Below, piece after piece: positions 16,819 through 52,142 of a stretch of 52,492 nucleotides of DNA (position 1 is its first letter; each line of letters starts with the position of its first letter). The stretch lies in the IMG/VR virus record IMGVR_UViG_3300042922_000373, positions 1 to 52,492 of that record. One strand, 5' to 3'. The DNA is from a virus. Lineage: Duplodnaviria > Caudoviricetes. Both the position numbers and the translations under genes were made by a program. Under the pieces are notes generated by a model that was given only the letters and a program-made list of their open reading frames with translations, searched no databases and was not told the DNA's origin.

Positions 16819-16845
16819 CTGTTATACCACGTGTGTTTACTGCGA
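16819..16845 (-). promoter_or_regulatory. 27-bp conserved promoter-like motif
   Basis: TCGCAGTAAACACACGTGGTATAACAG. Confidence 0.7.
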
Positions 16846-16892
16846 GACCGGGCCGGTAATGCATCCCCATCCACTACCGACCCGGCCGTCTG

Positions 16893-17657
16893 TCATCCCT
16901 GGCGAAGGTCGCGTCGGGACTCGAACGCCGGCGAAGCGATGGTCGCCTCGTCGTCACGCTCGATGATCTGAGGAGCGGTCTCCTCGTTGATGGTGACCTG
17001 GGGCTGAGCCTCGGTCGCCTGCTGGCTCGCCTTGAACGCCTGGAACGCTGCCCAATCGGGGTCGTCCTGGATCATGGGGGCGAGCGGATCTGCGGCTCCT
17101 ACCACAGCGATCACCTGTCCCTTCTCGACCTCGGTGCCGGCGGGGAGTGTGACGTCAGCGTGCAGAGGCTGGGGAACCTCCTGCTTGGCAGCTGCCGCGA
17201 TCTCACGAGCCGACTTCTGGTAGTCCTGGGGCTGACGCACGTTCGACGGTGCTTCTGCCGGCAGGTTGTCGGTCGTCTCCTTGAGCTTGTCCACCTTGAA
17301 GTCGATGACCTTGTTGATGAAGTCCGCGACACCCTGCTCGCCCTCACCGAGAAGCTCGAGGAAGAGCTCGGAGTAGGCGTCCGACGCGAGGAAGTCCGTG
17401 GTCTCCTCCGGCTCCTTCGTGAACTTGCCCGAGGGGAGACGCACACCGTACGCGTAGTGGATGATGCGCTTGAAGACGGGGATGATCGCCCGCGGGTTGG
17501 TCGACTCAGCGAGGCGCTCGAGGTCCTCCATGAGGTTGATCTCCAGCGCTTCCGCCTGGTTGAGGTTGAAGTAGAAGTCCTCGGTGCGGGTGACGGTGGT
17601 TGCGTCGCCGTTGCCGTCGAAGACGACCTTCTTGAACGTGATGGTCTTCTTGATCAT
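16893..17657 (-). CDS. hypothetical protein
   Basis: MIKKTITF...DFYFNL..AE...AYGVR...F.K...F..SDAYSELF; low-complexity C-terminus. Confidence 0.75.
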   Translation of the reverse strand: MIKKTITFKKVVFDGNGDATTVTRTEDFYFNLNQAEALEINLMEDLERLAESTNPRAIIPVFKRIIHYAYGVRLPSGKFTKEPEETTDFLASDAYSELFLELLGEGEQGVADFINKVIDFKVDKLKETTDNLPAEAPSNVRQPQDYQKSAREIAAAAKQEVPQPLHADVTLPAGTEVEKGQVIAVVGAADPLAPMIQDDPDWAAFQAFKASQQATEAQPQVTINEETAPQIIERDDEATIASPAFESRRDLRQG

Positions 17658-17672
17658 TGTGTTGTGTGTTCC

Positions 17673-17990
17673 TTACTCGGATGCGAGGTGATGGGCGGTC
17701 GTGAATTCGCTGTTGAACAGCAGGTGGTTGGCGTTCTTCTGGTAAATATCGACATAGGTCTCTGCGCGGTCACCGTTGTAGGTCACCTCGAAGTAGAAAC
17801 CAGACACTACGTCAGTGCTGACCAGCGCCTTCCAGTTCTGAAGGGTCTTGCAGAACCAGACGACGTAGAAGTCCTCAGCCGACACGGTTCCCTCGAAACC
17901 GAACGGCGGGTCTACTTCAATCGTGGAGAGCTCTCGGTTGGCGACCATAGCCGCTGCCTCAAGAGCCTTCTTCTGGAAGTTTTCGGGCAT
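17673..17990 (-). CDS. DUF6275-like protein
   Basis: YVVWFCKTLQNWKALVST...YFEVTYNGD..ETYVDIYQK. Confidence 0.7.
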   Translation of the reverse strand: MPENFQKKALEAAAMVANRELSTIEVDPPFGFEGTVSAEDFYVVWFCKTLQNWKALVSTDVVSGFYFEVTYNGDRAETYVDIYQKNANHLLFNSEFTTAHHLASE

Positions 17991-18003
17991 CTTTTCTCCT
18001 TAG

Positions 18004-18043
18004 AAAAAAGCAGAAGCCAATGTGGTTAGCATTGACTTCGCTT
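18004..18043 (-). terminator. intrinsic terminator with CTAACCA loop
   Basis: GAAGTCAATG-CTAACCA-CATTGGCTTC then GCTTTTTT. Confidence 0.7.
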
Positions 18044-18057
18044 CACTGCGACTTGGG

Positions 18058-18306
18058 TCAGTCGGTGACTGCGGGGGTCTCGTCGAGGGTGGCGTCCGGG
18101 AGCTCCGTGAGCACGTAGATCTCGCGGTCCTCGTCGTCGTTCTGGCGTGCGGCTGCGGCGATGGCAACGACGGTGATGATACCGAGCGCTGCTCCGCCCC
18201 AGACGAGCACCTTCTTGGCGACGGGGCCGAGCGAGAACTTCTTCGTGCTCTTGGGGGTCTCCTCGGTCGTGGTGGTGTCCTCGACGGGGGTGTCCTGAGC
18301 GGTCAT
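18058..18306 (-). CDS. small single-TM membrane protein
   Basis: TTGAAAGGAA RBS after the motif at 18336; VLVWGGAALGIITVVAIAAAA. Confidence 0.7.
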   Translation of the reverse strand: MTAQDTPVEDTTTTEETPKSTKKFSLGPVAKKVLVWGGAALGIITVVAIAAAARQNDDEDREIYVLTELPDATLDETPAVTD

Positions 18307-18335
18307 GATAGTTCCTTTCAAGTGGTGACAGTGGG

Positions 18336-18362
18336 TCATTATAGGCCCTGTATTTCTCGCGA
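18336..18362 (-). promoter_or_regulatory. 27-bp conserved promoter-like motif
   Basis: TCGCGAGAAATACAGGGCCTATAATGA. Confidence 0.8.
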
Positions 18363-18680
18363 GTCCTCGATGGCCGCGATTTGCTGGTTGTGCCGTGCGA
18401 TCTCCTCGGGACTACGATTTGCAAGCATGCGGTCGTATTCCTCGAGTTCTTCCGGGGTCTTGAGGCGGACCCTGGACATGTGATGGGCGGAATATGAGTT
18501 GGTCGCCTCGTCGAATTGGTGAATCACGTCACCCTTTTCGTACACGGCGAAACGAAGCCAATCCGCAAGGGATAGCCCCGTCTTTTCCCACTCTTCTCGA
18601 AGGAATGCCTCTTCCTTATTCACCAACTCTTGCTGGAACTCTCGCTGCTCTCTGAGAAGCTGCTCGACGTCGTAGGCCAA
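18339..18680 (-). CDS. hypothetical protein
   Basis: AAGGAG RBS, TTG start; its stop codon lies inside the promoter motif. Confidence 0.65.
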   Translation of the reverse strand: MAYDVEQLLREQREFQQELVNKEEAFLREEWEKTGLSLADWLRFAVYEKGDVIHQFDEATNSYSAHHMSRVRLKTPEELEEYDRMLANRSPEEIARHNQQIAAIEDSREIQGL

Positions 18681-18897
18681 TCTCAGTCTCCTTATACAGC
18701 ATGAACATGGACGTGACGAACTCGGATGAGTTGCCTTTGGCTTGGGTGAGGGCTCCCAGAGTCGCAGTGACGAAGACCGTCAGCTGTTCGTCCGAGAGCC
18801 CCTCGACCTCAATGCCGTGCTTCTTGAGTACCCGAGTCAGATCCCCCTCGAAAGTGGAATCATCGCCCTCCCAGGTATCGAATAACGCATCAGCCAC
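18616..18897 (-). CDS. hypothetical protein
   Basis: GTG start overlapping the end of the upstream small ORF. Confidence 0.55.
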   Translation of the reverse strand: MADALFDTWEGDDSTFEGDLTRVLKKHGIEVEGLSDEQLTVFVTATLGALTQAKGNSSEFVTSMFMLYKETEIGLRRRAASQRAARVPARVGE

Positions 18898-19030
18898 CTG
18901 GTGCACATTCAGCGTGGTAGACGTTCCCGGCGTGTAGCGCGACGTTATTGCCTCGGATTTCTCTCTGGCAGGTCTTGTCGTCGCACTCCATGTACTTCTC
19001 GCCGGAATCGCGGTCGTAGGTGACGCCCAT
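18890..19030 (-). CDS. small Cys/His zinc-finger-like protein (46 aa, not in the ORF track)
   Basis: MGVTYDRDSGEKYMECDDKTCQREI...YHAECAPGG; TGATG coupling. Confidence 0.55.
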   Translation of the reverse strand: MGVTYDRDSGEKYMECDDKTCQREIRGNNVALHAGNVYHAECAPGG

Positions 19031-19167
19031 CAGCGCTTTCCACCGCGCTTGGCCTTGCGCCGCTTAGCCACGGCCTTCTTGTGTCGAACCTCCTGTCGGG
19101 CCGCGAGATCCTTCTCACGACGCTCTCGTACTGCACGGAGGTATGACCACCCCGGAACTGGGATCAT
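19030..19167 (-). CDS. small basic protein (45 aa, not in the ORF track)
   Basis: AAGGA RBS; MIPVPGWSYLRAVRERREKDLAARQEVRHKKAVAKRRKAKRGGKR. Confidence 0.55.
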   Translation of the reverse strand: MIPVPGWSYLRAVRERREKDLAARQEVRHKKAVAKRRKAKRGGKR

Positions 19168-19454
19168 GTGTTCTTGTCCTTCTCGAATGGATAGCACGCA
19201 TAAGGATATCCGTGGTACACGAACACGGCGTCCTTATAGCGTTTGGGGATGAGTTGCTCGTAAGGTTCGATCTCCAACCCACATGCCGAGCAATATATGG
19301 GTATCAGCGCGATCGGGTAATCAGCGAAAGGAGTAGTAATCCTGTTTCGGAGGCTTCTGAAACGTAACCCCCATGACAGGACTCGCATCCCTCGCTGACG
19401 TGTAGAAGTAGGACACGTCGAGCTTGTGGTCGAGGTTCCAACCGAAGTCGTCAC
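19164..19454 (-). CDS. small CxxC...HGxPxxC protein (true start unclear, probably near 19320)
   Basis: CSAC...YHGYPYAC resembles ORF 14914..15117. Confidence 0.45.
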   Translation of the reverse strand: MTTSVGTSTTSSTCPTSTRQRGMRVLSWGLRFRSLRNRITTPFADYPIALIPIYCSACGLEIEPYEQLIPKRYKDAVFVYHGYPYACYPFEKDKNT

Positions 19455-20118
19455 CCATCGGCACGTTCCCCAGCCCGATCATGTCGTAGAACATGTTCAG
19501 GGAGGCGTAGTTGTTGTTGTTGATCTCGGCGTTGATCGCGTTGACGGCGGCGTCGACGATGTTCTGGTTGCCCCAGAAATATCGGTCTGTCCAGACATCG
19601 AGGCACTCGACCATCTTCTCGTCGAGACGCCGGGAGTCCGAGAGGAGATTGCGGTCATCCATCGGGTCGCGGTTTGCAACACGATCGCGGATGATCTCCT
19701 CTTCGATCTTGGCGTACTTCGAGTCACCCTGAAGCTCCCGAGTCTTGTCCCGCCACTCCGTCAAAGCCCTGTCGGAGAGGGTGTAAAGGCTCAGTAGAGC
19801 CGCCTTCTGCTTTGTGTTGATCGATTGTGCAGAGATGACACAGCCGATAGTGACCAAGCCGGCAGACAGGGGTGGTACGAAATGCAGCCAAGTCAGCTGG
19901 ACCTTCTCTTTGGCGGTGAGCGGAGTGCCCGGGTCGTTCGGATCGTTGACGTACCGCCGCTCCTCCTCGGCAAGGATGTCGTCATGGGCTCGGATTGCTG
20001 CCCTGGCCGACAGGATCCCGGTGAAGACCACCCCAGCCACCCCAGCGGCCGTGAGGATAGCCGACGAATTCTGAACGATCTTCTGGCTCAGAGTGGACGT
20101 GATGCTAGCGAATGTCAT
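19321..20118 (-). CDS. DUF6353-like protein (paralog of 13960..14910)
   Basis: NSSAILTAAGVAGVVFTGILSARA...ASLNMFYDMIGL...GDDFGWN. Confidence 0.7.
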   Translation of the reverse strand: MTFASITSTLSQKIVQNSSAILTAAGVAGVVFTGILSARAAIRAHDDILAEEERRYVNDPNDPGTPLTAKEKVQLTWLHFVPPLSAGLVTIGCVISAQSINTKQKAALLSLYTLSDRALTEWRDKTRELQGDSKYAKIEEEIIRDRVANRDPMDDRNLLSDSRRLDEKMVECLDVWTDRYFWGNQNIVDAAVNAINAEINNNNYASLNMFYDMIGLGNVPMGDDFGWNLDHKLDVSYFYTSARDASPVMGVTFQKPPKQDYYSFR

Positions 20119-20305
20119 CTTCTTCTTCCTTGTACTTGCGGAGGTATGCGTTGGTCAGGAGGATCAGGAAGAGGATAACGAACATCGCCCCCACAATAAT
20201 CCACCCGAAGGTATTGACGTTGACGTTGGCCTCAAGCCATCCGGCACCGAAAATAAGAACCCCGAGGACCACGAAGGTTCCGAGCCACCAGACGAGTGTC
20301 TTCAC
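20105..20305 (-). CDS. small membrane protein (2 TM)
   Basis: AAGGAGAGG RBS; two hydrophobic helices. Confidence 0.7.
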   Translation of the reverse strand: MKTLVWWLGTFVVLGVLIFGAGWLEANVNVNTFGWIIVGAMFVILFLILLTNAYLRKYKEEEDDIR

Positions 20306-20577
20306 GACAGCCTCTCCTTCAAGATGTTGTTCGTGTCGACAAACGTCGAGCCGGATACGTTGAGGGACTTGAGGGTGATCTCTTTCCCCGTGTCTTTCTG
20401 CACCAGCTTATGGTAGAAGAGCACATAACCCTCGTTCTCGACCAAGTGGCGAACCGCCGCCTTCTTGGTGACGAGTTCCGGACCGGAGAGATCCGTGAAG
20501 TCAAGGACGACGTGATCATCGTTGTCCTTGACCAGCGTGCGGAGCTCTTCGATGGCGACCTCGAACTTCGTAGCCAT
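20302..20577 (-). CDS. hypothetical protein
   Basis: ATG coupled (TGATG) to the upstream small ORF; MATKFEVAIEEL... Confidence 0.6.
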   Translation of the reverse strand: MATKFEVAIEELRTLVKDNDDHVVLDFTDLSGPELVTKKAAVRHLVENEGYVLFYHKLVQKDTGKEITLKSLNVSGSTFVDTNNILKERLS

Positions 20578-20708
20578 CAGTACGCCCACGCCATCGTCAT
20601 CTGGTAGCGATAGTTCCGGCGCTCCGAGAAAAGCGGGGAACCCTGCTTGGGCGGGAATCCGAAGTAGTAGGCAGCCTTCTTTGCTGCTCGGATCATCTTG
20701 TTCTTCAT
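20577..20708 (-). CDS. small hypothetical protein (43 aa, not in the ORF track)
   Basis: TCTTGAAAGGAG RBS; MKNKMIRAAKKAAYYFGFPPKQ... Confidence 0.6.
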   Translation of the reverse strand: MKNKMIRAAKKAAYYFGFPPKQGSPLFSERRNYRYQMTMAWAY

Positions 20709-20726
20709 GATGTTCTCCTTTCAAGA

Positions 20727-20827
20727 AAACAAAATTAGAAGGGCAAGTAGCGGTGCTACGTTGCGTCCAGTGGGGCTGCCACTCCGCGAGATGCGGGATG
20801 GACATCTATCTCTAGATCTCTTCTAAT
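20727..20827 (-). ncRNA. candidate multi-hairpin small RNA
   Basis: Outer stem ATTAGAAG/CTTCTAAT encloses ATCTA-GAGA-TAGAT, CCGC/GCGG, AGTGG/CCACT, GTCCA/TGGAC and GTAGC/GCTAC; ends in TTTTGTTTT. Confidence 0.55.
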
Positions 20828-20849
20828 ATAGGGTATGTAAAACTCGCGA
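20823..20849 (-). promoter_or_regulatory. 27-bp conserved promoter-like motif
   Basis: TCGCGAGTTTTACATACCCTATATTAG. Confidence 0.7.
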
Positions 20850-20851
20850 GG

Positions 20852-21169
20852 TCAGCTTCCGTACCGCTCAAGGCTGTATACCTGGACCGCCGCGACAAGA
20901 GCCTTGGCCATGGGATCACCGTCAGCTGCTTGGTTGACGATGTTGGTCCAGCGAATGCTTACGTGTCGGCGATCTGCCGCGAGACTCTCGATCCGGTCCT
21001 CGAGTGTGAAGGCCTCGACGTCGCGGTCGCTGGCCTGCACCCCACGAATATAGGCCGAACGAATGCCTTGCTCGATCATCGTGTCGACCGTACTGTCGTT
21101 CTTCGGGTAGTCACTGTAGGCCTTACGAACGACCTTGACCAGGTTCTCGACTATCTTCTTGTTGAGCAT
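20852..21169 (-). CDS. hypothetical protein
   Basis: AAAGGAG RBS. Confidence 0.7.
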   Translation of the reverse strand: MLNKKIVENLVKVVRKAYSDYPKNDSTVDTMIEQGIRSAYIRGVQASDRDVEAFTLEDRIESLAADRRHVSIRWTNIVNQAADGDPMAKALVAAVQVYSLERYGS

Positions 21170-21318
21170 CAGTTCTCCTTTATTCGGTCTCGCCAGTAGC
21201 GAATTGCGGTGTATACCTTCGAGGGGCTGTAGCCTGTCTTGATGGCTATCTGTCCACCAGTCAAGCCTCGCCTCTTAAGCTCGAAGATATTGAGTACATA
21301 GGCTGGAGGTGTCTCCAA
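21169..21318 (-). CDS. small HTH protein (49 aa, not in the ORF track)
   Basis: TTG start; IFELKRRGLTGGQIAIKTGYSPSKVYTAI; TGATG coupling. Confidence 0.5.
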   Translation of the reverse strand: METPPAYVLNIFELKRRGLTGGQIAIKTGYSPSKVYTAIRYWRDRIKEN

Positions 21319-21331
21319 TGGGCCTGTTTGC

Positions 21332-21523
21332 TTATTGGGCACTTGCGTTGGCGGTCCTTCTCGAGTCGTGTCCTTGCGGGAACGGGATGTTGCGGCGCCA
21401 GATAGCGGCTTCGTCGTAGAAGCCAGACACGGGTCGACCGATCACTGCGATGTCCCGGGGCTTGCGTCCACGACGACACGGCTGGTCGCCAACAGCACCA
21501 CAGGTGGGGCATGGCACTTTCAT
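21332..21523 (-). CDS. small zinc-finger protein
   Basis: TTGAAAGGAG RBS; VPCPTCGAVGDQPC...H. Confidence 0.65.
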   Translation of the reverse strand: MKVPCPTCGAVGDQPCRRGRKPRDIAVIGRPVSGFYDEAAIWRRNIPFPQGHDSRRTANASAQ

Positions 21524-21535
21524 GAGTCTCCTTTC

Positions 21536-21563
21536 AAAAATGGAAACCCGTGTTAGGGGTTCC
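21536..21563 (-). terminator. intrinsic terminator with CTAACAC loop
   Basis: GGAACCC-CTAACAC-GGGTTTCCATTTTT. Confidence 0.7.
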
Positions 21564-21577
21564 CACTTGACTAGTTG

Positions 21578-21691
21578 TTACTTGCGTCGCATTTCGCGTA
21601 CGAAGATTCCGATGAGCCAGAGTCCACTGGTGAGTGCCGTGAGAAGACAGTCTCCAATGAAACTCCAGAATCCATACTTTCCTCCGAACAT
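21578..21691 (-). CDS. micro membrane protein (37 aa, not in the ORF track)
   Basis: GAAAGGAA RBS; MFGGKYGFWSFIGDCLLTALTSGLWLIGIFVREMRRK. Confidence 0.7.
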   Translation of the reverse strand: MFGGKYGFWSFIGDCLLTALTSGLWLIGIFVREMRRK

Positions 21692-21717
21692 GAATGTTCC
21701 TTTCGTAAGTGGGGTGG

Positions 21718-21744
21718 TCATTATACCCCCTGTGAAAGTCGCGA
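21718..21744 (-). promoter_or_regulatory. 27-bp conserved promoter-like motif
   Basis: TCGCGACTTTCACAGGGGGTATAATGA. Confidence 0.8.
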
Positions 21745-21745
21745 C

Positions 21746-21777
21746 AAAATAAGAACCCGTGTTAGGGGTTCCTATTT
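21746..21777 (-). terminator. intrinsic terminator, exact 32-bp repeat of 22090..22121
   Basis: AAATAGGAACCC-CTAACAC-GGGTTCTTATTTT. Confidence 0.75.
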
Positions 21778-21784
21778 GAGTTGG

Positions 21785-22012
21785 TCACTCGTTGGGGTTG
21801 ATGAGCTTGTCAGCAGCGACTTCTCCAGCCACATTGGCGACGACGGCGAACACGATGACGGTGGGGATCGCGATGGCCAGCGTGATGAAGGTGGTCCGAA
21901 TCATTTCGGATACACGATCGAGCACGGGCTTCGCGGCCTCCTCCAAATCGGGGAGTTCGACGTTGACGTTGACGGTGTGGTTGAGGTCGATCGGCTTCTT
22001 GAACAGAGGCAT
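21785..22012 (-). CDS. small single-TM membrane protein
   Basis: TAAAGGAG RBS; TFITLAIAIPTVIVFAVVANV. Confidence 0.7.
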   Translation of the reverse strand: MPLFKKPIDLNHTVNVNVELPDLEEAAKPVLDRVSEMIRTTFITLAIAIPTVIVFAVVANVAGEVAADKLINPNE

Positions 22013-22040
22013 GATTTCTCCTTTAGTAGGGTGGTTGATC

Positions 22041-22067
22041 TCATTAAAGCCCATGTAAACTGCGCGA
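22041..22067 (-). promoter_or_regulatory. 27-bp conserved promoter-like motif
   Basis: TCGCGCAGTTTACATGGGCTTTAATGA. Confidence 0.75.
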
Positions 22068-22089
22068 CACCAAAACGATAGCCCATGCG

Positions 22090-22121
22090 AAAATAAGAAC
22101 CCGTGTTAGGGGTTCCTATTT
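22090..22121 (-). terminator. intrinsic terminator, exact 32-bp repeat of 21746..21777
   Basis: same sequence as 21746..21777. Confidence 0.75.
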
Positions 22122-22127
22122 TTGATG

Positions 22128-22391: not shown

Positions 22392-22418
22392 TTTAGTGTT
22401 CTCCTTAATAGAGGGTGG

Positions 22419-22445: not shown

Positions 22446-22455
22446 ATACATGGCC

Positions 22456-22846: not shown

Positions 22847-22873
22847 TCATTATACCCCGTGTGATTTCTGCGA
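22847..22873 (-). promoter_or_regulatory. 27-bp conserved promoter-like motif
   Basis: TCGCAGAAATCACACGGGGTATAATGA. Confidence 0.8.
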
Positions 22874-46624: not shown

Positions 46625-46640
46625 GTCGTGGAACTCTGGG

Positions 46641-47630
46641 TTAGAGTGCCTTGTAGTTGGCAGCTTCGGCGCGAGCGGCTGCGGCCTTCATGTTGGGGCC
46701 CCAGTTGTCGTCGTTGTCGGCGTAGCCCCACTTGGAACGAAGCCAGGCAGCGAGCGACCCGCCGTAGTTCTGGTTGAGGAAGGCCTGAAGACCCGCCGCA
46801 GAACCGGCACCCCACCGGTTGTCCATCCAGGTCGACTGCGACATGCCACGACCGTAGCCGTAGAGGTGCGCGACCTTCTGGAGACCGTTGACGTACTGGA
46901 GATCGGCGAGGTCGTTGACCGTGGCCTTGTGGTAGGACGGGTTCGGCTTCGGCGTGGTCTGTGCGACCCACTCGTTGTAGCGGTTCGTGTGACCAGCCTG
47001 CGTGCCGGCACCCCAGTCGCCATCGATGAGTCCGCTGTACCACCCGCGACCCTGAAGGTACGTCTGGTAGCGCTTGATGGCGGCGATCGTTGCCGGGCCG
47101 AGGAGTCCATCGACGATGAGCTTCTCACCCTGAGCGGCGTTGAGGAAGTTCTGCTCGTTCGCGACGTTCTGGTCGAAGACGAAGTTGTCGTTGTCGTCCC
47201 CGATGTACGCCTCGTGGTTCAGCGTGTTGTGCGTACCGAACGTGTGAGCGTGAGTCGGGAACAGCGTCTGGTGCACGTGAGCACCGACACCCCATTCCTT
47301 GCCCCAGGCAGACGCACCGGTGTATGCGACGAGGTCGCCACGCTTGACCTTCTGGCCAGAGTTGACCAGGATCTTGGAGAGGTGGATCGACGAGGCCATC
47401 TGACCGTCGTTGAGCGCGATCGAGAGTCGGCGACCCTCTGCTCCGGCGGTCGTGTGGTCGACGAGCGTGACCGTACCGTCCTCGACGGCGTAGAGCGAGG
47501 TGCCGTAGGCGACCCCGTAGTCCACAGCCGGCTCAGTCGACGGCGGGTTGCGTCGCTTGTGATCTTCGAAGGAAGAACTGATGAAGCTTGACTTGGTTGG
47601 GCGAAGGTATCCGCCCTTTACGTCTGCCAT
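46641..47630 (-). CDS. endolysin (M23 peptidase + peptidoglycan-binding domains)
   Basis: AVDY..A.GT.LYAVEDG.V...HLS...V..GQKVKRG......GAS...GAHVH; VDGLLGPATI, IDGDWGAGT. Confidence 0.85.
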   Translation of the reverse strand: MADVKGGYLRPTKSSFISSSFEDHKRRNPPSTEPAVDYGVAYGTSLYAVEDGTVTLVDHTTAGAEGRRLSIALNDGQMASSIHLSKILVNSGQKVKRGDLVAYTGASAWGKEWGVGAHVHQTLFPTHAHTFGTHNTLNHEAYIGDDNDNFVFDQNVANEQNFLNAAQGEKLIVDGLLGPATIAAIKRYQTYLQGRGWYSGLIDGDWGAGTQAGHTNRYNEWVAQTTPKPNPSYHKATVNDLADLQYVNGLQKVAHLYGYGRGMSQSTWMDNRWGAGSAAGLQAFLNQNYGGSLAAWLRSKWGYADNDDNWGPNMKAAAARAEAANYKAL

Positions 47631-47690
47631 TTGGTTCCTTTCATAGGAGTTCAGAAGACTTTTGCCGAGGGGAAAACCGACTTGCTCTGT

Positions 47691-47720
47691 GGAAAATATC
47701 CCCCCGGAGAATTTTTTAGG
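47691..47720. repeat. cos-proximal AAAAATT-NN-CCGGGGGG motif
   Basis: CCTAAAAAATTCTCCGGGGGGATATTTTCC (minus strand). Confidence 0.65.
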
Positions 47721-47729
47721 AGGGCGGCG
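47721..47729 (-). other. probable cos site (9-nt 3' overhang CGCCGCCCT)
   Basis: in a non-coding gap flanked by G/C tracts; matches the CGCCG-type 9-nt overhangs recalled for related actinophage clusters; HNH-terminase module nearby. Confidence 0.7.
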
Positions 47730-47773
47730 ATACGGGGTGGGGGCCTATATTTCGAGACCCCCTCCCCACCCCC

Positions 47774-48037
47774 TTATGCAGACCCCAAGAGGCCTTGCAC
47801 AGTGGTTTCGTCGACCTTCAAGTAGATGCCGGCTTCATCGAATTCCAGAATTTCATCAATTCCTTGTTCGATCGCTTGCATCTGATCAGCTTCAGACAAT
47901 TCATCAGAAGACTTGACCACTCGTGCCAGGTAGGCAGTGGTGTGGTAGCCCTTGCTCTCGTCGTACTGAAACCATTCATCGAACCTTGTGAAAGGATCGT
48001 AAGGATTGTCCGCTGTGGTGAGCATGTGCCCTGCCAT
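47774..48037 (-). CDS. hypothetical protein
   Basis: MLTT.DNPYDPF..FDEW..YD...GY.T..YLAR; directly after the RNAP-like gene. Confidence 0.7.
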   Translation of the reverse strand: MAGHMLTTADNPYDPFTRFDEWFQYDESKGYHTTAYLARVVKSSDELSEADQMQAIEQGIDEILEFDEAGIYLKVDETTVQGLLGSA

Positions 48038-48064
48038 GGTAGCTGTACCCCGTGTCCTTTCTAC

Positions 48065-50890
48065 TTAGCCGTTGACATAGTCGTGGAGGGTACTGGTAGG
48101 TACGCCCAGCATGGCTGCCACATCAGCGTAGTCATAGCCCCTAGCTAGGAGGGACTTGGCTCGCGTTACCTTGGCGGGGGCGATGGCCTTGACCTCGCGT
48201 GGTGTGGCCAGCTGCTTGACCTGATCCAGGTCGGCGTTGTCCAAGATGCTCTTCAGCATGTTGTTAGTAACAGCGCCTGCCTGTACAGCACTCCATTCCT
48301 TATCAGTGATCTGAATGGCCGGCTTCTTGGCTCCCATGCGGGCACGGGCTTCATTCAGGGCGGCGGACTTAATCTTCTTGATGCCGTCCTTATCCAGATC
48401 CGGGTTTGCTTCGATCCTGGCCTTAACCAGGGTACCTGCTAGAATCTGGGCCTGCCGTTCACGAGGGGCGTTTCTCTGCGCGAGATCCAGCTTCTCAGCG
48501 AGACTCTTAACTTCAGGCGCATAGGCCTTGGCTGCAGAGGGGTTCCTCTTGATGGAGGGGGTCTCAATTGTCGACTTGCGAGCAGAGTCCCCTAGTGCCT
48601 TGAGCTTGTTGGCGTGATCTGCATAGACGTGCTCCATGAGAGTACCGCCATCACGAGACAGCAGTTCACGGGCGTCATTGGCTTCGAACATCTTGGTGGA
48701 CTTACCCTGTGACCAAGGCTTGTCTACAACTTCGCCATTCTTCTTGGTGATCTGCTCACCAGTGTACTCCCAGACGCGCTTCCCTGTAGCAGGGTCAATA
48801 CGCATCTTGCGGTCTGCAGGACGGGCCTCAGACTTAGCACGAGAAATGAGAGTTGCGGCACCACGAGTAGCGCCACCCTGATAGGTCTTCTTGAGCTCCG
48901 CAATACCGTTCTGTTTCGCAGACGTACGGAAATCAAGCGAATGCTTTTCAGCATCGATGACAACCATGGAATGACGCACTGCACGAGCGAGCTCCGAATT
49001 CGGCGCACCCTGAATGGTCATGTCTGTGATCAGATTGGAGATGTCACCCATCTTCAGCTGCTTAGCCTGCTTGTTAGGCGACTTGGGCTTGCCGGTTTTG
49101 GGGTCGATCGGGAAAACGGGCTTTCCGAGTTTGGCGTCCCACGTTCCACCGTCGATGGTCTTCATTCCGTCAAAAGGCGGATGTGCCCTCTGAGGATCGA
49201 ATCCCTTGAGCCCTTGCAGAGGAGGTGCAGACTTCACACGACCCTTGCCAGATTCAGGATTCGGAATGACCAGAACCGTGTCACCATCGAAGTCGGCACC
49301 TGAAAGGCGACCGGCAACATTGGCGTTGATTCCAACAGCGTCCTTTGCCTGTTTGATGAGGCGGTTCGCTTCACGGTTACGGTTGTTCACAACGAGTTCG
49401 GGAATCTCGAACGTACCACCATGCGGATGACGAATCAGAACGACTCGCTCACCGTTGTTGTAGTTCGGGGCGTAGATCTCGTTGTCCTTCAGACTGTTAA
49501 TCGGAAGGATGACATGGTTTGCAGTTCTCGGCAGACCAGCGGCCTTCAAGTGGTTTGCAGCGGAATCGATGCCATCAGCGTACGACTCCAGGAGCTTCTT
49601 CTTGATAACCGGGTTTGTCAGGGAGTTGATCTCGTCGAGTTCGGCCTTTTTGCGATCGTACGCAAGCGACAGCTGCTCGCGGGCCAGATCGGGCGACTGC
49701 TTTGACAGGAACTGAGACGAAAGCGACTTGGACCACTTGGACCAGCCACCTTCTTCACCAGAATAGGAGATGTCGTTTCCGTCATCATCCTTCTTCACAG
49801 ATCCGACGATGTTAAGCGGCGACTGATGCTGCTTTCCGTCTTTTCCGGGATAGTTGATCTGGCGAACGATCGATCCGAACGGAAGCTCGGTGTCTTCACC
49901 GGTATTCGCGTCCTTCTTGATCGGCTTCATAGCCTTGAGCTTGTCGCCCGTGTTCGTCTTGTTCGTGTTGAAGATCATGTCATAGCCGTCCGGCACATCG
50001 TCCGAATACATGGCCATGCCCTTGAGGTAGTGATCGTTTCCGACCTTGATACGCACCTGGGCGTACCGTGAGCTACCGAGGGACAGATCGTCGACTCCAC
50101 GACGAAGCTCGATGACACCGTCCTTCTGATCTCCGCCATCTTCCGCATAACGGACAGCCACTCGAGAGGGCTTTACCGCAACGGGAGGCTTGACGTCGAG
50201 ATAGGTACGGCCACCGTCTTCGCTGTAGGTCGCGATCGACTTGATCTTCTCAGGGTGGTTGATGACATCGGGGAACCGCGTTCCAGGAGGGGCGAGCACC
50301 TTGGTGGTGGTGTTCTTTCCCGTTCCCAGCTGGTTGACAGGCACATAGAAGACTTCGTAGCCCTCGTCCTTGAGCATGGCAACCGACACAGCGAGCTTTT
50401 CAGGGCTCACACCGAGGTGGTTACCCGTTCCCTTACCGATGTCGAGGAATCCGCCGGACTTCTCCATGTTGTCCTTCAGAGTTCCCGCGGTTGCCAACAG
50501 AATGGCTTCCTTGGTGTCCTCGGAGGGCTTCAGGAGTGCACGGATGGACGACTCGTTGCGACCCATGATCTCACCGATGGCGACGTTCGAGTTTCCGGCG
50601 TCCTTGAGTCGGACAGCGCGGGCTCGGTCTTCAGCATCGATGCGGGCCTTGGCGATCGTCTTTGCATTGCGGAGATCCGTAGTCGTGAACTTGACCTCGT
50701 CGGTCGAGAAAGCGCGTGCGATCTCAACAGGCGAGAAGCCCTTGTCTTCGAGGTCCTTGATGTGGGCGAGCATGTCCTTACCGCGCTGGTAGGGAGTCTC
50801 ACCCGAACCCCAAGGATAGCGTCCCGACTTGCGGAGGACGCCATAGTGAGCGAGAAACTCATCGTGGTCCACATCACTGTCGAAAATCAC
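48065..50890 (-). CDS. single-chain two-barrel (double-psi beta-barrel) RNA polymerase, YonO/QDE-1-like, with N- and C-terminal HTH
   Basis: QVRI...YLKGM; VLIRHPH; LSGADFDGD catalytic motif; MGDISN; SMVVIDAEKH; HTHs SNVAIGEIMGRNESSIRALL and YADVAAMLGVPTSTL. Confidence 0.8.
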   Translation of the reverse strand: MIFDSDVDHDEFLAHYGVLRKSGRYPWGSGETPYQRGKDMLAHIKDLEDKGFSPVEIARAFSTDEVKFTTTDLRNAKTIAKARIDAEDRARAVRLKDAGNSNVAIGEIMGRNESSIRALLKPSEDTKEAILLATAGTLKDNMEKSGGFLDIGKGTGNHLGVSPEKLAVSVAMLKDEGYEVFYVPVNQLGTGKNTTTKVLAPPGTRFPDVINHPEKIKSIATYSEDGGRTYLDVKPPVAVKPSRVAVRYAEDGGDQKDGVIELRRGVDDLSLGSSRYAQVRIKVGNDHYLKGMAMYSDDVPDGYDMIFNTNKTNTGDKLKAMKPIKKDANTGEDTELPFGSIVRQINYPGKDGKQHQSPLNIVGSVKKDDDGNDISYSGEEGGWSKWSKSLSSQFLSKQSPDLAREQLSLAYDRKKAELDEINSLTNPVIKKKLLESYADGIDSAANHLKAAGLPRTANHVILPINSLKDNEIYAPNYNNGERVVLIRHPHGGTFEIPELVVNNRNREANRLIKQAKDAVGINANVAGRLSGADFDGDTVLVIPNPESGKGRVKSAPPLQGLKGFDPQRAHPPFDGMKTIDGGTWDAKLGKPVFPIDPKTGKPKSPNKQAKQLKMGDISNLITDMTIQGAPNSELARAVRHSMVVIDAEKHSLDFRTSAKQNGIAELKKTYQGGATRGAATLISRAKSEARPADRKMRIDPATGKRVWEYTGEQITKKNGEVVDKPWSQGKSTKMFEANDARELLSRDGGTLMEHVYADHANKLKALGDSARKSTIETPSIKRNPSAAKAYAPEVKSLAEKLDLAQRNAPRERQAQILAGTLVKARIEANPDLDKDGIKKIKSAALNEARARMGAKKPAIQITDKEWSAVQAGAVTNNMLKSILDNADLDQVKQLATPREVKAIAPAKVTRAKSLLARGYDYADVAAMLGVPTSTLHDYVNG

Positions 50891-51480
50891 AGGGCATCCT
50901 CCAATCGGACCTGGTCGTAGATGGCGTCGGCGTTGATGGTCTTTTCCATGATCTCTTCGATCCGCCGGGGGTCAGGAATGAATTCCTTGTACGGTTCGTC
51001 GTTCTGGTAGATGCGCAGAACGATCAACATGTCGTACGGACTCTTCTTGTACTCGAGGCAGAAGTACGCAGCGTAAACTTCAAGCTGCGTGAATGCCGTA
51101 CGAGTGGTCCCGGTCTTCAAGTCGTGAATGCGAAGCACCCACAGCTTTTCACCGGTCTCCTGGATGACCTCTTCACGGTAACCGATGCAATCGGCCGTTC
51201 CAAAGGCATTGTAGGTGACGAAGAGGACGACTTCGGGACTCATGCGGAATCCAATGCCGTCGTTGACGTAACAGTTGAAGGACGAACGGTTCTTCGGTCG
51301 CTTCATACCCAGGACGATGTCCCGAGCAGCGAGGTCGTGCAGGTCAGTCCCACGCTGAGCCTGGAGGTTGTTGCGCATGGAAAGACGGAGCTTGTTGTTG
51401 TCATAGCCCAGCCAGTGGTGCTTCGACGCACTAAGCGGCGCGTGCCTTCCTTGCACTTCTGAATGTCTGTTGAATTGCAT
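50887..51480 (-). CDS. PD-(D/E)XK exonuclease (Cas4/DUF2800-like)
   Basis: HAPLSAS; RGTDLH; E..L....AFGTAD; IHDLKTG; QLEVYA. Confidence 0.75.
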   Translation of the reverse strand: MQFNRHSEVQGRHAPLSASKHHWLGYDNNKLRLSMRNNLQAQRGTDLHDLAARDIVLGMKRPKNRSSFNCYVNDGIGFRMSPEVVLFVTYNAFGTADCIGYREEVIQETGEKLWVLRIHDLKTGTTRTAFTQLEVYAAYFCLEYKKSPYDMLIVLRIYQNDEPYKEFIPDPRRIEEIMEKTINADAIYDQVRLEDAL

Positions 51481-51769
51481 CTAGAATCGCTTCCTTGTTC
51501 TCGGGGTAAATGAAAGCGCCAAACGACATGTCATCACACTTGTCGATGTAGTAGTCCTGGTTCGGTTGGTGGTCCGAGTTCCAGGCTGCTTTGACTTCCA
51601 GCATTACCCATTTGTTCTTGTACAACACGATGAGATCTGGGATCCCCGTCCGAAGCTGCGCATCGTTCTTCAAAATGATGCACTCTGGATAGAGGGCCTC
51701 AAGTTCCTTGATGAGCTCAGCTTGGAATGCGGATTCCAGCTTTTGCTCACGTTTGGTAACATTGGGCAT
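51431..51769 (-). CDS. VRR-NUC domain nuclease (Holliday junction resolvase-like)
   Basis: LESAFQ..L...GIPDLIVL....W.MLEVK.......PNQ. Confidence 0.8.
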   Translation of the reverse strand: MPNVTKREQKLESAFQAELIKELEALYPECIILKNDAQLRTGIPDLIVLYKNKWVMLEVKAAWNSDHQPNQDYYIDKCDDMSFGAFIYPENKEAILDAIQQTFRSARKARAA

Positions 51770-51827
51770 CAGATCAAGACTCCTGTAACAAAAACATAAC
51801 CGAGGTGGTAGGCATATCCTACTCCTT

Positions 51828-51854
51828 TCATTATAACCCATGTATCGAATGCGT
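51828..51854 (-). promoter_or_regulatory. 27-bp conserved promoter-like motif upstream of the nuclease-nuclease-RNAP operon
   Basis: ACGCATTCGATACATGGGTTATAATGA. Confidence 0.7.
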
Positions 51855-51893
51855 GGGCAAATGAAAAAACGGTGTTTTGGGCCTCGGTCAGAC

Positions 51894-51933
51894 AAAAAGT
51901 GAAAGCCCGTGTGGTTAGCACGAGCACTCACTT
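51894..51933 (-). terminator. intrinsic terminator with CTAACCA loop
   Basis: AAGTGA..GCTCGTG-CTAACCA-CACGGGC..TCACTTTTT. Confidence 0.7.
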
Positions 51934-51938
51934 ATCAG

Positions 51939-52094
51939 CTACAGCTGGCGGTGTACTGTGGGCCAGTAGTGCGGGATCGAGTTGATGAGGATCTGACGGA
52001 CGTGCTCCTCGGCACTCTCCGGGGTGTGGAAAGCTCCGGGAACGGCGTCCAGGTCAACCTCAACAACGAGAGTCACGCGCTGTCCATTAGGCAT
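51939..52094 (-). CDS. small hypothetical protein (51 aa, not in the ORF track)
   Basis: GAAAGGAAG RBS after the motif at 52116; MPNGQRVTLVVEVDLDAVPGAFHTPES... Confidence 0.7.
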   Translation of the reverse strand: MPNGQRVTLVVEVDLDAVPGAFHTPESAEEHVRQILINSIPHYWPTVHRQL

Positions 52095-52115
52095 GGTACT
52101 TCCTTTCGTAGGTGG

Positions 52116-52142
52116 TCATTATAGGCCTTGTAGACCCCGCGA
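52116..52142 (-). promoter_or_regulatory. 27-bp conserved promoter-like motif
   Basis: TCGCGGGGTCTACAAGGCCTATAATGA. Confidence 0.8.

What the first reader, a model, noticed from the sequence alone, without database searches (positions are those of the whole stretch)
16819..52142. Twelve copies of a 27-bp motif WCGCR-N5-YACR-N5-TATAATGA: candidate promoter of the phage RNAP
Seen on the minus strand at 16819, 18336, 20823, 21718, 22041, 22419, 22661, 22847, 22966, 23437, 51828 and 52116. Spacing is invariant and every copy is oriented with the genes. None was seen in the structural operon. It contains TATAAT but has TCGC rather than TTGACA upstream, plus a fixed internal AC. One copy precedes the operon encoding the RNAP, which would allow positive feedback. 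In two non-coding cassettes (20823, 22966) the closing RNA stem starts inside the last bases of the motif. This hints that the start site lies within TATAATG rather than ~7 nt downstream as for a sigma-70 -10 box (inference).
Basis: partly seen in the sequence, partly recalled or inferred. Interest (0 to 1): 0.82.

Follow-up and report, generated by a model that had tools for sequence, protein, structure and literature searches.

The report
Promoter set of phage's own polymerase
Twelve copies of one 27-base signal sit in front of the early, replication and polymerase genes of this soil phage, and comparison with related phages suggests that the phage's own single-chain RNA polymerase reads it, starting at the end of TATAAT.

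Summary
There are exactly 12 copies, all on the minus strand and at the stated coordinates. None lies in the lysis and structural block.

The reading is supported by comparison, not by experiment.
- The window encodes a 941-aa two-barrel RNA polymerase with a DFDGD loop, helix-turn-helix ends and a QDE-1/P23-45-like fold.
- The same fixed-spacing signal recurs, on one strand, in phages of Microbacterium, Arthrobacter, Streptomyces, Rhodococcus and Gordonia, with variants in Lactococcus and Faecalibacterium phages. All encode this enzyme.
- 25 of 25 near-complete viral contigs with the exact motif encode it.
- Three results place the start at the end of TATAAT, not about 7 nt downstream:
  - RNA leader-trailer helices begin at -2 to +2.
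  - In 19 of 271 cassettes the ribosome-binding site starts within +1 to +7.
  - Positions +1 to +4 are almost always purines.
- The Faecalibacterium variant has CTTTAT, which lacks the A that a sigma-70 -10 box needs.

No start site was mapped, and which polymerase acts is inferred. My literature searches found no description of this promoter. Earlier agents of this scan reached the same reading on other genomes.

The parts
52116..52142 (-). Motif copy 1, TCGCGGGGTCTACAAGGCCTATAATGA. Hexamer 52123-52118. ATG at 52094, 23 nt after the hexamer, opening a 51-codon gene.
   Evidence: 28.2 bits
51828..51854 (-). Motif copy 2, a weaker variant beginning ACGCA. Hexamer 51835-51830. A 60-nt leader (GAAAGGAGTAGGAT..., with a hairpin and T-rich tract) runs to ATG 51769. 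It heads the VRR-Nuc-like / exonuclease / polymerase operon.
   Evidence: 25.8 bits. The leader start is shared with Microbacterium phage Count.
23437..23463 (-). Motif copy 3. Hexamer 23444-23439. ATG at 23413.
   Evidence: 31.9 bits
22966..22992 (-). Motif copy 4, which drives non-coding cassette 1.
   Evidence: 32.9 bits
22874..22969 (-). Non-coding RNA cassette 1, about 95 nt. It is a three-way junction. The closing stem UGAAACC/GGUUUCA starts at the last T of the hexamer, and the cassette ends in a T-run directly before the next motif.
   Evidence: -33.4 kcal/mol, z = -5.0, 0 of 200 shuffles fold as well. No Rfam match.
22847..22873 (-). Motif copy 5. ATG at 22823.
   Evidence: 31.2 bits
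22661..22687 (-). Motif copy 6. ATG at 22639. A hairpin at 22709-22696 with a T-run lies just upstream.
   Evidence: 32.3 bits
22419..22445 (-). Motif copy 7. ATG at 22391.
   Evidence: 29.6 bits
22041..22067 (-). Motif copy 8, with hexamer TTTAAT (no A at hexamer position 2). ATG at 22012.
   Evidence: 28.2 bits
21718..21744 (-). Motif copy 9. ATG at 21691. This is the only copy with a -35-like hexamer at sigma-70 spacing (TTGTCG, 16 nt).
   Evidence: 22.3 bits
20823..20849 (-). Motif copy 10, with hexamer TATATT. It drives non-coding cassette 2.
   Evidence: 25.0 bits
20726..20827 (-). Non-coding RNA cassette 2, about 100 nt. It is a four-way junction. The closing stem AUUAGAAG/CUUCUAAU starts inside the hexamer, and a U-run follows. 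The next gene starts at ATG 20709, not at 20805.
   Evidence: -41.9 kcal/mol, z = -3.9. Partial sequence likeness to cassettes in phages Count, Circum and P092.
18336..18362 (-). Motif copy 11, the best-scoring copy. ATG at 18306.
   Evidence: 34.6 bits
16819..16845 (-). Motif copy 12, the weakest copy, with hexamer TATAAC. A 47-nt leader with a hairpin (16819-16799) and a T-rich tract runs to ATG 16773. It heads about 16.8 kb of co-oriented replication-region genes.
   Evidence: 18.8 bits
48065..50890 (-). 941-aa single-chain two-barrel RNA polymerase, the candidate reader of the motif. It has a GADFDGD loop (D533-D537), an N-terminal HTH_23 (residues 85-121) and C-terminal helix-turn-helix-like helices.
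   Evidence: PHROG 4291, E = 0; QDE-1, E = 1.2e-8; P32 gp64, E = 7.3e-6
50887..51480 (-). 197-aa exonuclease in the polymerase operon. Relatives annotate the homologue as a Cas4-family exonuclease.
   Evidence: phrog_3953, E = 9.6e-60
51431..51769 (-). 112-aa VRR-Nuc-like protein, the first gene of the polymerase operon.
   Evidence: PF08774, E = 0.0014, below the Pfam cut-off; same gene position as in relatives

Best explanation
The 27-bp element is the promoter of this phage's own single-chain two-barrel RNA polymerase, the 941-aa product of 48065-50890(-), PHROG 4291, the Lactococcus phage 1706 orf75 family.

The promoter has three blocks about one helical turn apart, so they lie on one face of the DNA: TCGCR, YACA and TATAAT. 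Two steps of the mechanism are inferred and not shown. First, the enzyme's own helix-turn-helix modules would read the two upstream blocks in duplex DNA. Second, TATAAT would be the stretch that melts.

Synthesis starts at the end of the hexamer, between its fifth base (A or G) and the G that follows it. It does not start about 7 nt downstream. The first transcribed bases are purines (G-A-R-A).

Each strong copy drives a very short unit: one small gene, or one structured RNA. The unit ends at a hairpin plus U-run. In the RNA cassettes, that hairpin is the helix formed between the first and last bases of the transcript.

The two weakest copies (51854 and 16845) head long operons, which encode the polymerase and the replication-region genes. 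Their leaders carry a hairpin and a T-rich tract.

The lysis and structural genes have no copy. They may be reached by read-through from the polymerase operon once the genome ends are joined. That step is pure inference.
For: It behaves as a promoter in the window.
- There are 12 copies, all co-oriented with the genes.
- The ATG lies 23-31 nt after the hexamer in 8 of 12 copies.
- Hairpins with T-runs lie upstream of several copies.

The polymerase is real.
- It matches PHROG 4291 at E = 0.
- It carries GADFDGD, which is invariant in 20 of 20 aligned family members.
- Its AlphaFold model has mean pLDDT 76.7. The model matches QDE-1 (E = 1.2e-8), the P23-45-type gp64/gp62 polymerases (about 1e-5) and RDR2.
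- Pfam finds HTH_23 at residues 85-121.

The motif travels with the polymerase.
- Of 48 IMG/VR contigs carrying the exact motif, 42 encode the enzyme. All 25 that are at least 90% complete do. The 6 without it are 41-66% complete.
- Five named actinophages from five host genera have 8-16 forward copies and 0 reverse copies. The reversed-pattern control gave 0-1.
- Lactococcus phages P092 and P1046 keep TTTACA-N5-TATART with a changed first block.
- Faecalibacterium phage FP_oengus has 13 forward and 0 reverse copies of RCGCG-N5-NNCA-N5-CTTTAT-GR.
- In most of these genomes a copy precedes the nuclease-polymerase operon.

The start site does not fit sigma-70.
- 98 unique cassettes have a T-run 30-165 nt downstream, and 76 of them have a terminal helix. 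In 40 of those 76 the helix begins at -2 to +2 from the hexamer end. In none does it begin at +3 to +7.
- A leader pairs with its own trailer better than with other trailers: 5.03 against 3.86 +/- 0.11, with 0 of 5000 permutations reaching the observed value.
- Helices of at least 6 bp are found in 38 of 98 cassettes when anchored at +1 to +3, in 14 of 98 at +7 to +9, and in 4 of 98 at -12 to -10.
- In 19 of 271 unique coding cassettes the Shine-Dalgarno core begins within +1 to +7, for example TATAAT-AGGAGG-N7-ATG.
- In 390 unique instances, +1 is G in 356 and A in 33, +2 is A in 345 and G in 41, and +3 and +4 are purines in about 354.
- Only 1 of the 12 window copies has a -35-like hexamer.
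- Two window copies (TTTAAT, TATAAC) and the whole FP_oengus set (CTTTAT) lack the A at hexamer position 2 or the T at position 6. From my own knowledge, sigma-70 needs both.

There is a hint on where the first polymerase comes from. The depositors of phage 1706 annotated orf75 as a 'structural protein', and the ReqiPepy6 gp106 note repeats this.
Against: - No transcription start was mapped, and no enzyme was tested. Which polymerase acts is inferred from co-occurrence. That co-occurrence is not phylogenetically independent, because all these phages form one lineage.
- The hexamer is identical to the sigma-70 -10 consensus in 9 of 12 window copies and in most relatives, so host holoenzyme could also bind there.
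- YonO is the only relative with assayed function that I read about. It transcribes late genes from a single start, not early genes (PMC5467207, passages).
- The polymerase gene sits behind a copy of its own promoter, so the first enzyme must be injected or made by the host. The only support for injection is a GenBank product label. I could not read the paper behind it.
- The sequence profile of the family gives no significant polymerase match in the PDB (beta-prime, E = 1.7). Only the predicted fold does, and with low TM-scores (about 0.3).
Confidence: 0.74

Rival explanations
1. These are ordinary host promoters. Host sigma-A holoenzyme uses TATAAT as a -10 box without a -35 box and starts about 7 nt downstream. 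The TCGCR and YACA blocks are binding sites for a phage or host transcription factor.
For: - 9 of 12 window copies have a perfect TATAAT.
- From my own knowledge, many actinobacterial promoters lack a -35 box.
- One copy has TTGTCG at 16 nt spacing.
- Early phage genes are usually read by the host enzyme, and YonO reads late genes.
Against: - Leader-trailer helices begin at -2 to +2 and never at +3 to +7. They are specific to each cassette.
- Shine-Dalgarno cores lie within +1 to +7 in 19 of 271 cassettes.
- Positions +1 to +4 are fixed purines.
- FP_oengus uses CTTTAT at the same spacing.
- The same upstream blocks are kept across hosts from Actinobacteria to Firmicutes.
- In 185,579 species' genomes the motif occurs mostly as singletons in unrelated phyla. 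Multi-copy hits lie on contigs of about 3-44 kb, mostly in metagenome-assembled genomes (MAGs).
Confidence: 0.1
2. The promoters are used by both enzymes. At entry, host holoenzyme uses the TATAAT of these same elements, or at least of the copy before the polymerase operon, to make the first polymerase. The phage enzyme then takes over from the same elements at its own start site.
For: - It solves the question of the first polymerase without a virion enzyme.
- It would explain why most lineages keep an exact sigma-70 -10 consensus, although the FP_oengus set shows the phage enzyme does not need it.
- The sigma-70 scan found no canonical -35/-10 promoter on the gene strand anywhere in 43000-52492.
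Against: - The 1706 orf75 label 'structural protein' points to an injected enzyme.
- FP_oengus lacks a usable -10 box even in the copy before its polymerase operon, where the hexamer is TTTTAT at 27683.
- No data show two start sites.
Confidence: 0.13
3. The element is not a promoter. It is a repeated operator, an RNA-processing signal or a recombination site that happens to lie in intergenic regions.
For: The three blocks spaced about 10 bp apart would also suit a DNA-binding protein that reads one face of the helix.
Against: - Orientation is strictly one-way: 6-15 forward against 0-1 reverse copies in nine genomes.
- The distance to ribosome-binding sites is fixed, with the start codon most often 24 nt after the hexamer.
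- The element sits directly after terminators and directly before tRNA-like and small-RNA genes that have no other promoter.
Confidence: 0.03

Closest known systems
Promoters of T7/T3/SP6-type single-subunit phage RNA polymerases (from my own knowledge, not from a call)
   Same: - A conserved phage-specific element of about 25 bp that ends at the start site.
- A TATA stretch directly before +1.
- A purine-rich initially transcribed sequence.
- Many co-oriented copies, and hairpin-U terminators.
- No sigma factor, if this reading is right.
   Different: - The enzyme here is a two-barrel polymerase related to cellular RNA polymerases and QDE-1, not a Pol I-like enzyme.
- The element is three blocks separated by two unconserved 5-nt spacers, not one continuous block.
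- The enzyme carries helix-turn-helix modules.
Promoters of the two-barrel polymerases of Thermus phage P23-45: gp96 (virion, AT-rich motif) and gp64 (non-virion, GC-rich motif). bioRxiv 10.1101/2022.12.01.518664, passages read.
   Same: - A phage-encoded single-chain two-barrel polymerase with its own motif.
- The motif is present only in relatives that carry the enzyme.
- My model matches the gp64-type structures 8f72 and 8f5m at about 1e-5, and gp96 (8h2m) at 0.013.
   Different: - There the starts were mapped by ONT-cappable-seq and occupancy by ChIP-seq. Here nothing is mapped.
- The motifs are described there only as AT-rich and GC-rich.
- The enzyme here has terminal helix-turn-helix domains and is not fused to the tape measure protein.
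YonO of Bacillus prophage SPbeta (PMC5467207, passages read)
   Same: A single-chain polymerase of about 100 kDa with a DxDGD loop, shown there to be a processive DNA-dependent RNA polymerase. It is phage-encoded.
   Different: [quoted passage not shown]
- Its promoter was left undetermined.
- Here the motif marks early and middle units and is absent from the late block.
Lactococcus phage 1706 orf75 / actinophage 'HTH DNA-binding domain protein' family (PHROG 4291). Koert et al., bioRxiv 10.1101/842583, passages read.
   Same: This is the same protein family. That paper predicted polymerase activity from the DxDGD motif and noted helix-turn-helix domains at both ends. The same phage lineage spans Actinobacteria and Firmicutes.
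   Different: That text does not contain the word 'promoter' (0 occurrences). The motif, its geometry and its cassettes are not described there.
Sigma-70/sigma-A -10 element
   Same: The hexamer sequence TATAAT.
   Different: - The inferred start is 0-2 nt from the hexamer end, not 6-8 nt.
- There is no -35 box in 11 of 12 copies.
- The positions essential for sigma-70 are not kept in FP_oengus or in 2 window copies.

Membership tests
Sigma-70/sigma-A promoter | A -10 hexamer TANNNT with A at position 2 and T at position 6 | tested here: inconclusive
   10 of 12 window copies fit. TTTAAT (22041) and TATAAC (16819) do not. The homologous set in FP_oengus is CTTTAT in 10 of 13 copies, and none of the 13 has A at position 2.
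Sigma-70/sigma-A promoter | A -35 hexamer 16-18 nt upstream, or an extended -10 TGn | tested here: not met
   Only 1 of 12 copies has a hexamer matching TTGACA at 4 of 6 positions (21747-21720). None has TG before the hexamer.
Sigma-70/sigma-A promoter | Transcription start 6-8 nt after the hexamer | tested here: not met
   This test is indirect. Helix starts fall at -2 to +2 in 40 of 76 cassettes and at +3 to +7 in none. Shine-Dalgarno cores lie within +1 to +7 in 19 of 271 cassettes. No start was mapped.
Two-barrel (double-psi beta-barrel) RNA polymerases, YonO/QDE-1/P23-45 type | A DxDGD metal-binding loop | tested here: met
   GADFDGD is present. D533, F534, D535, G536 and D537 are invariant in 20 of 20 sequences.
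Two-barrel (double-psi beta-barrel) RNA polymerases, YonO/QDE-1/P23-45 type | Fold similar to solved two-barrel polymerases | tested here: met
   Foldseek matches QDE-1 (7y7p_A, E = 1.2e-8, probability 1.00), P32 gp64 (8f72, 7.3e-6), P74 gp62 (8f5m, 1.2e-5) and RDR2 (1e-4). TM-scores are only about 0.2-0.3. The model has mean pLDDT 76.7.
Two-barrel (double-psi beta-barrel) RNA polymerases, YonO/QDE-1/P23-45 type | DNA-dependent RNA synthesis | not testable with these tools
   Needs purified protein.
Phage-polymerase-specific promoter (works like T7 class promoters) | A conserved element ending at the start site, multi-copy, co-oriented, and absent from host genomes | tested here: met
   Searches show copy number and strand. 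Searches show the start position indirectly.
Phage-polymerase-specific promoter (works like T7 class promoters) | Recognised and used by the phage enzyme alone | not testable with these tools
   There is only co-occurrence: 25 of 25 near-complete contigs and 9 of 9 genomes examined.
T7-like (Pol I-type) RNA polymerase system | A right-hand single-subunit polymerase homologous to T7 gp1 | tested here: not met
   The enzyme has the two-barrel fold. Pfam found no T7-type polymerase domain in the large ORFs I scanned.

The most novel reading that the evidence does not exclude
This siphovirus lineage runs a transcription system that needs no sigma factor. A two-barrel polymerase, possibly delivered in the virion, finds duplex promoters through its own helix-turn-helix modules. 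It melts TATAAT and starts at the end of it.

The polymerase produces leaderless small RNAs and tRNA-like molecules. In these, the helix between the 5' and 3' ends also serves as the terminator stem.

The weak promoter copy before the polymerase operon may also be the late promoter. It would reach the lysis and structural genes only after the cohesive ends are joined. That would make genome circularisation the early-to-late switch.
Probability: 0.3. Interest if true: 0.85.

Novelty: new variant of a known kind. Interest (0 to 1): 0.72.

Why it matters
Promoters that belong to a phage's own RNA polymerase are a known kind of element, as in T7, N4 and P23-45. For this widespread family of single-chain relatives of cellular RNA polymerase, no promoter is in print as far as my searches show. 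The promoter of YonO, the founding member, was explicitly left open.

The family occurs in at least 250 sequenced phages of Arthrobacter, Gordonia, Streptomyces, Microbacterium, Rhodococcus, Lactococcus and Faecalibacterium.

A defined 25-bp element with a predicted start site makes several questions directly testable.
- Can a minimal two-barrel polymerase recognise promoters without a sigma factor?
- What do its fused helix-turn-helix modules do?
- How does it terminate?

It would also give a compact, orthogonal expression system for Gram-positive hosts, and a marker for annotating early transcription units in hundreds of phage genomes.

Tried and rejected
**RNA evidence.** Thirteen runs on record as RNA held 5-9% of the sampled words of 20300-23600. 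I laid four soil metatranscriptome runs from four studies, all kept as contigs.
- Seven contigs, with no differing letters from the window, lie at 21795-22025, 22141-22413 and 22484-22648. Each lies inside one unit downstream of a motif copy.
- The tool warns that contigs cannot show starts, ends or strand, and that DNA can be present in an RNA library. I therefore draw nothing from the uncovered parts or from the contig ends.
- For the record, the contig ends lie 7-17 nt below the first base after the hexamer. That cannot separate a start at +1 from one at +7.
- I did not lay the DNA holders.

**Consensus fold of cassette 2 with its three look-alikes.** MAFFT could not align them, and the result had 0 predicted pairs. 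I dropped this.

**ARAGORN boundaries of promoter-adjacent tRNA-like genes.** Leaders were 0, 4, 4, 4 and 8 nt in 5 of 30 calls. The acceptor stems continue into the leader and trailer, so these boundaries are unreliable and I did not use them as evidence.

**Rfam.** There was no match for the window's two RNA cassettes at E <= 1. There was none for a second RNA family seen in relatives at E <= 0.1.

**PDB search with the sequence profile.** It gave no significant polymerase match. Only the predicted fold did.

**Nearest DNA relatives.** No phage record covers more than 2% of 16500-24400, so no close cultured relative is at hand.

**A first, weaker complementarity test.** Own leader-trailer pairs gave 5.45 Watson-Crick matches of 8, against 4.75 for other pairs. 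I replaced it with the permutation test.

**Supplementary files.** The supplements of Koert et al. and of the P23-45 paper may hold motif data that I could not see.

**Paper not held.** The paper on Rhodococcus phage ReqiPepy6 was not held. I did not look up the paper on Lactococcus phage 1706 by id, and a word search for 'phage 1706', Lactococcus and promoter found no paper. The virion-protein hint therefore rests on GenBank labels alone.

Full report
**1. The observation**

With up to three mismatches it gives 12 matches, against a shuffle mean of 0.48. All 12 are on the minus strand, at the listed coordinates.

I trained a weight matrix on 365 instances taken only from other phages. It recovers exactly these 12 sites at 18.8-34.6 bits. 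Nothing else in the window scores above 8 bits on either strand, and ten shuffles reached at most 2.7 bits.

No copy lies between 23463 and 51828. That stretch holds the polymerase, lysis, packaging, head and tail genes: TerL, portal, tape measure protein and Sipho_Gp37, and the endolysin and HNH endonuclease.

The window is a linear IMG/VR virus record, estimated 87% complete.

**2. Anatomy in the window**

Eight copies are followed by a ribosome-binding site and an ATG 23-31 nt after the hexamer. Each of these heads a small gene. Their leaders are alike, of the form GACCACC..TAC.AAAGGAG.

Several copies sit directly after a hairpin and T-run. Examples are the hairpins at 22709-22696 and 51925-51905.

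Two copies drive non-coding cassettes.
- The first cassette (22972-22874) folds at -33.4 kcal/mol with z = -5.0.
- The second cassette (20829-20700) folds at -41.9 kcal/mol with z = -3.9.

In both, the outermost helix starts in the last bases of the motif and ends just before a U-run. The gene after the second cassette starts at ATG 20709, not at the first in-frame ATG at 20805.

The two weakest copies differ from the rest. They are 51854-51828 (25.8 bits) and 16845-16819 (18.8 bits). Their leaders are 60 and 47 nt long and carry a hairpin and a T-rich tract. They head long operons.
- The first heads the operon of a VRR-Nuc-like gene (weak Pfam hit), an exonuclease and the polymerase.
- The second heads about 16.8 kb of replication-region genes.

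**3. The polymerase**

The 941-aa product of 48065-50890(-) matches PHROG 4291, labelled 'RNA-dependent RNA polymerase', at E = 0. It contains GADFDGD and an HTH_23 domain at residues 85-121.

In an alignment with 19 homologues from viral contigs, the DFDGD residues are invariant.

An AlphaFold model built on that alignment has mean pLDDT 76.7. Foldseek gives these matches:

| Match | E-value |
|---|---|
| QDE-1 (7y7p_A) | 1.2e-8 |
| P32 gp64 (8f72), a P23-45-type non-virion polymerase | 7.3e-6 |
| P74 gp62 (8f5m), same type | 1.2e-5 |
| Plant RDR2 | about 1e-4 |
| P23-45 gp96 (8h2m) | 0.013 |
| crAss-like phage polymerase (6vr4) | 0.032 |

TM-scores are low, at about 0.2-0.3. The sequence profile alone finds no significant polymerase in the PDB.

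Koert et al. (bioRxiv 10.1101/842583, passages read) had already proposed polymerase activity for this protein and noted helix-turn-helix domains at both ends.

**4. The motif travels with the enzyme**

tblastn finds the protein in 250 phage records, all below 60% identity. The hosts are Arthrobacter, Gordonia, Streptomyces, Lactococcus, Curtobacterium, Microbacterium, Rhodococcus and Faecalibacterium.

Five named phages have the same motif with the same spacing: Count, Circum, Hoshi, ReqiPepy6 and Duffington. They have 8-16 forward copies and none on the reverse strand, and the reversed-pattern control gave 0-1. In each, the cluster of copies starts just after the tail genes. In four of the five (Count, Circum, ReqiPepy6 and Duffington) a degenerate copy also precedes the nuclease-polymerase operon; none was found there in Hoshi.

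Lactococcus phages keep TTTACA-N5-TATAAT (P092) or TTTACA-N5-TATAGT (P1046). Their first block is changed, to TTTTA and TCACA respectively.

Faecalibacterium phage FP_oengus has 13 forward copies of RCGCG-AAAAA-NNCA-N5-CTTTAT-GR at the same spacing. One of them lies before its polymerase operon. The stricter family pattern gives 13 forward and 0 reverse copies.

I tested 48 of those contigs. Of these, 42 encode the polymerase, including all 25 that are at least 90% complete. The 6 without it are 41-66% complete.

In one genome from each of 185,579 bacterial and archaeal species, the listed hits are mostly single copies in unrelated phyla. Multi-copy hits lie on contigs of about 3-44 kb, mostly in metagenome-assembled genomes (MAGs).

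**5. Where transcription starts**

This is the point that separates a private promoter from a host promoter. A sigma-70-type enzyme starts 6-8 nt after its -10 hexamer (my own knowledge). Four results argue against that here.

(a) Helix positions. Among 377 unique cassettes from nine genomes and 114 loci, 98 have a T-run 30-165 nt downstream. I folded these with the whole motif included.
- 76 of the 98 have a helix whose 3' arm abuts the T-run.
- In 40 of the 76, the 5' arm begins at -2 to +2 relative to the hexamer end. The peaks are at +1 (15 cassettes), +2 (10) and -2 (9).
- In none does it begin at +3 to +7.
- Most of the rest are hairpins that start well inside the transcript, from +8 onward (32 of the 36); four start upstream of -3.

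(b) Specificity. On all 98 cassettes, with no pre-selection, a leader pairs better with its own trailer than with permuted trailers.
- The mean longest helix is 5.03 against 3.86 +/- 0.11, and 0 of 5000 permutations reached the observed value.
- Helices of at least 6 bp occur in 38 of 98 cassettes when anchored at +1 to +3, in 14 of 98 at +7 to +9, and in 4 of 98 at -12 to -10.

(c) Ribosome-binding sites. In 19 of 271 unique coding cassettes, the Shine-Dalgarno core begins within +1 to +7. An example is TATAAT-AGGAGG-N7-ATG. A start at +7 would leave these mRNAs without a ribosome-binding site. Two of the 19 may be RNA cassettes that my script misread as coding.

(d) Conserved purines. In 390 unique instances, the four bases after the hexamer were not part of the search pattern. 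They are nonetheless nearly always purines.
- Position +1 is G in 356 and A in 33.
- Position +2 is A in 345 and G in 41.
- Positions +3 and +4 are purines in about 354.
- The fifth hexamer base varies only between A (363) and G (27). That suits an initiating purine.

Three further points fit the same conclusion.
- Only 1 of the 12 window copies has a -35-like hexamer.
- Two window copies have TTTAAT or TATAAC.
- The FP_oengus set has CTTTAT and so lacks the A at hexamer position 2.

**6. Mechanism, and what is inferred**

Shown by the sequence:
- a tripartite element with fixed spacing on one strand;
- short promoter-to-terminator cassettes;
- co-occurrence with the polymerase;
- a start-site geometry that does not fit sigma-70.

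Inferred:
- Its helix-turn-helix modules contact TCGCR and YACA. These blocks lie about 10 bp apart, on one face of the helix.
- TATAAT is the stretch that melts.
- Hairpin-U signals terminate this enzyme.

Open: where the first polymerase comes from. The depositors of phage 1706 labelled the homologue orf75 'structural protein', and the ReqiPepy6 record repeats the label. This hints at an injected enzyme. I could not read the paper behind the label.

Also open: how the late genes are read. They carry no copy of the motif. The sigma-70 scan of 43000-52492, which covers the start of the late block but not its structural genes, found no canonical host promoter on the gene strand. The last promoter upstream of them is the copy before the polymerase operon.

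**7. Evidence that cuts the other way**

- The hexamer equals the host -10 consensus in most lineages.
- YonO, the characterised relative, reads late genes from one start, and its promoter is unknown (PMC5467207, passages).
- The co-occurrence is within one phage lineage, so it is not a set of independent events.
- No start site is mapped. The RNA-library contigs I laid cannot show one (see Tried and rejected).

**8. Comparison with what is known, and novelty**

The element works like T7-class promoters, but the enzyme is unrelated to T7 RNA polymerase. The closest documented case is Thermus phage P23-45. There, two two-barrel polymerases each have their own motif, which was mapped experimentally.

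My searches found no description of this family's promoter. The word 'promoter' is absent from Koert et al. and from the survey of 46 Arthrobacter phages.

Earlier agents of this scan reached the same reading on other genomes. I treat those notes as leads, not as support. All the tests above were run here.

**9. Verdict**

This is a new variant of a known kind of element. My confidence in the main reading is 0.74, and I score interest at 0.72.

Noticed in passing
window 4096-4143 (-): Rfam match above the gathering score to the Pistol ribozyme (RF02679): 39.2 bits against a cut-off of 34.5, E = 9.4e-4.
   Followed up: no
window 3516-3605 (-) and 39076-39169 (+): A tRNA-Arg(CCT) that is unusually long at 90 nt, called by both ARAGORN and Rfam. 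ARAGORN also calls a tRNA-Thr(GGT) on the opposite strand, inside the 723-aa ORF. That one is probably false.
   Followed up: no
window 52149-52487: An array of at least 7 copies of GTGGCCAAGT-like sites in both orientations, some at an 8-nt period. It lies just upstream of the first promoter copy, at the contig end. It could be a replication origin or a regulator-binding array.
   Followed up: partly
window 51769-51829 and 16773-16820 (-): The leaders of the two long-operon promoters each carry a hairpin followed by a T-rich tract, which looks like an attenuator. The start of the first leader (GAAAGGAGTAGGAT) is identical in Microbacterium phage Count.
   Followed up: partly
related loci: ReqiPepy6 near 41.3 kb; L010 near 1441; L020 near 2138; L045 near 1349; L071 near 3229: A structured RNA of about 110 nt recurs directly after promoter copies in relatives. 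Its shared core is ..GACACGAA.GUGUAGG..CCUACC... It has no Rfam match at E <= 0.1. I did not see it in the window.
   Followed up: partly
related loci: ReqiPepy6 41206-41280; L045 4504-4574; L059 573-650; L064 1408-1477; L087 3413-3487: tRNA or tRNA-like genes start 0-8 nt after the hexamer. Several have odd anticodons (AAT, ATT, TTA, or undetermined). Their acceptor stems are extended by leader-trailer pairing and end in a T-run.
   Followed up: partly
window 50776-50890 (-), polymerase residues 1-38; and 43796-44518 (-): The polymerase N-terminus carries a nearly invariant motif, HYG..R.SGRYPWGSG. A short stretch of it resembles the 240-aa ORF upstream of TerL (in-window BLAST, E = 0.033). 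In relatives it resembles small ORFs elsewhere in the genome. It may be a shared virion-targeting or interaction tag.
   Followed up: partly
window 21795-22025, 22141-22413, 22484-22648: Contigs with no differing letters from the window occur in soil metatranscriptome libraries of four studies, over three small early genes. DNA carry-over is not excluded.
   Followed up: partly
window 47631-47773 (-): A G-rich inverted repeat (GGGGGTGGGG...CCCCCACCCC) lies in the 143-nt gap between the small gene after the polymerase and the endolysin. In relatives the genome ends lie at this position. It is a likely cos region.
   Followed up: no
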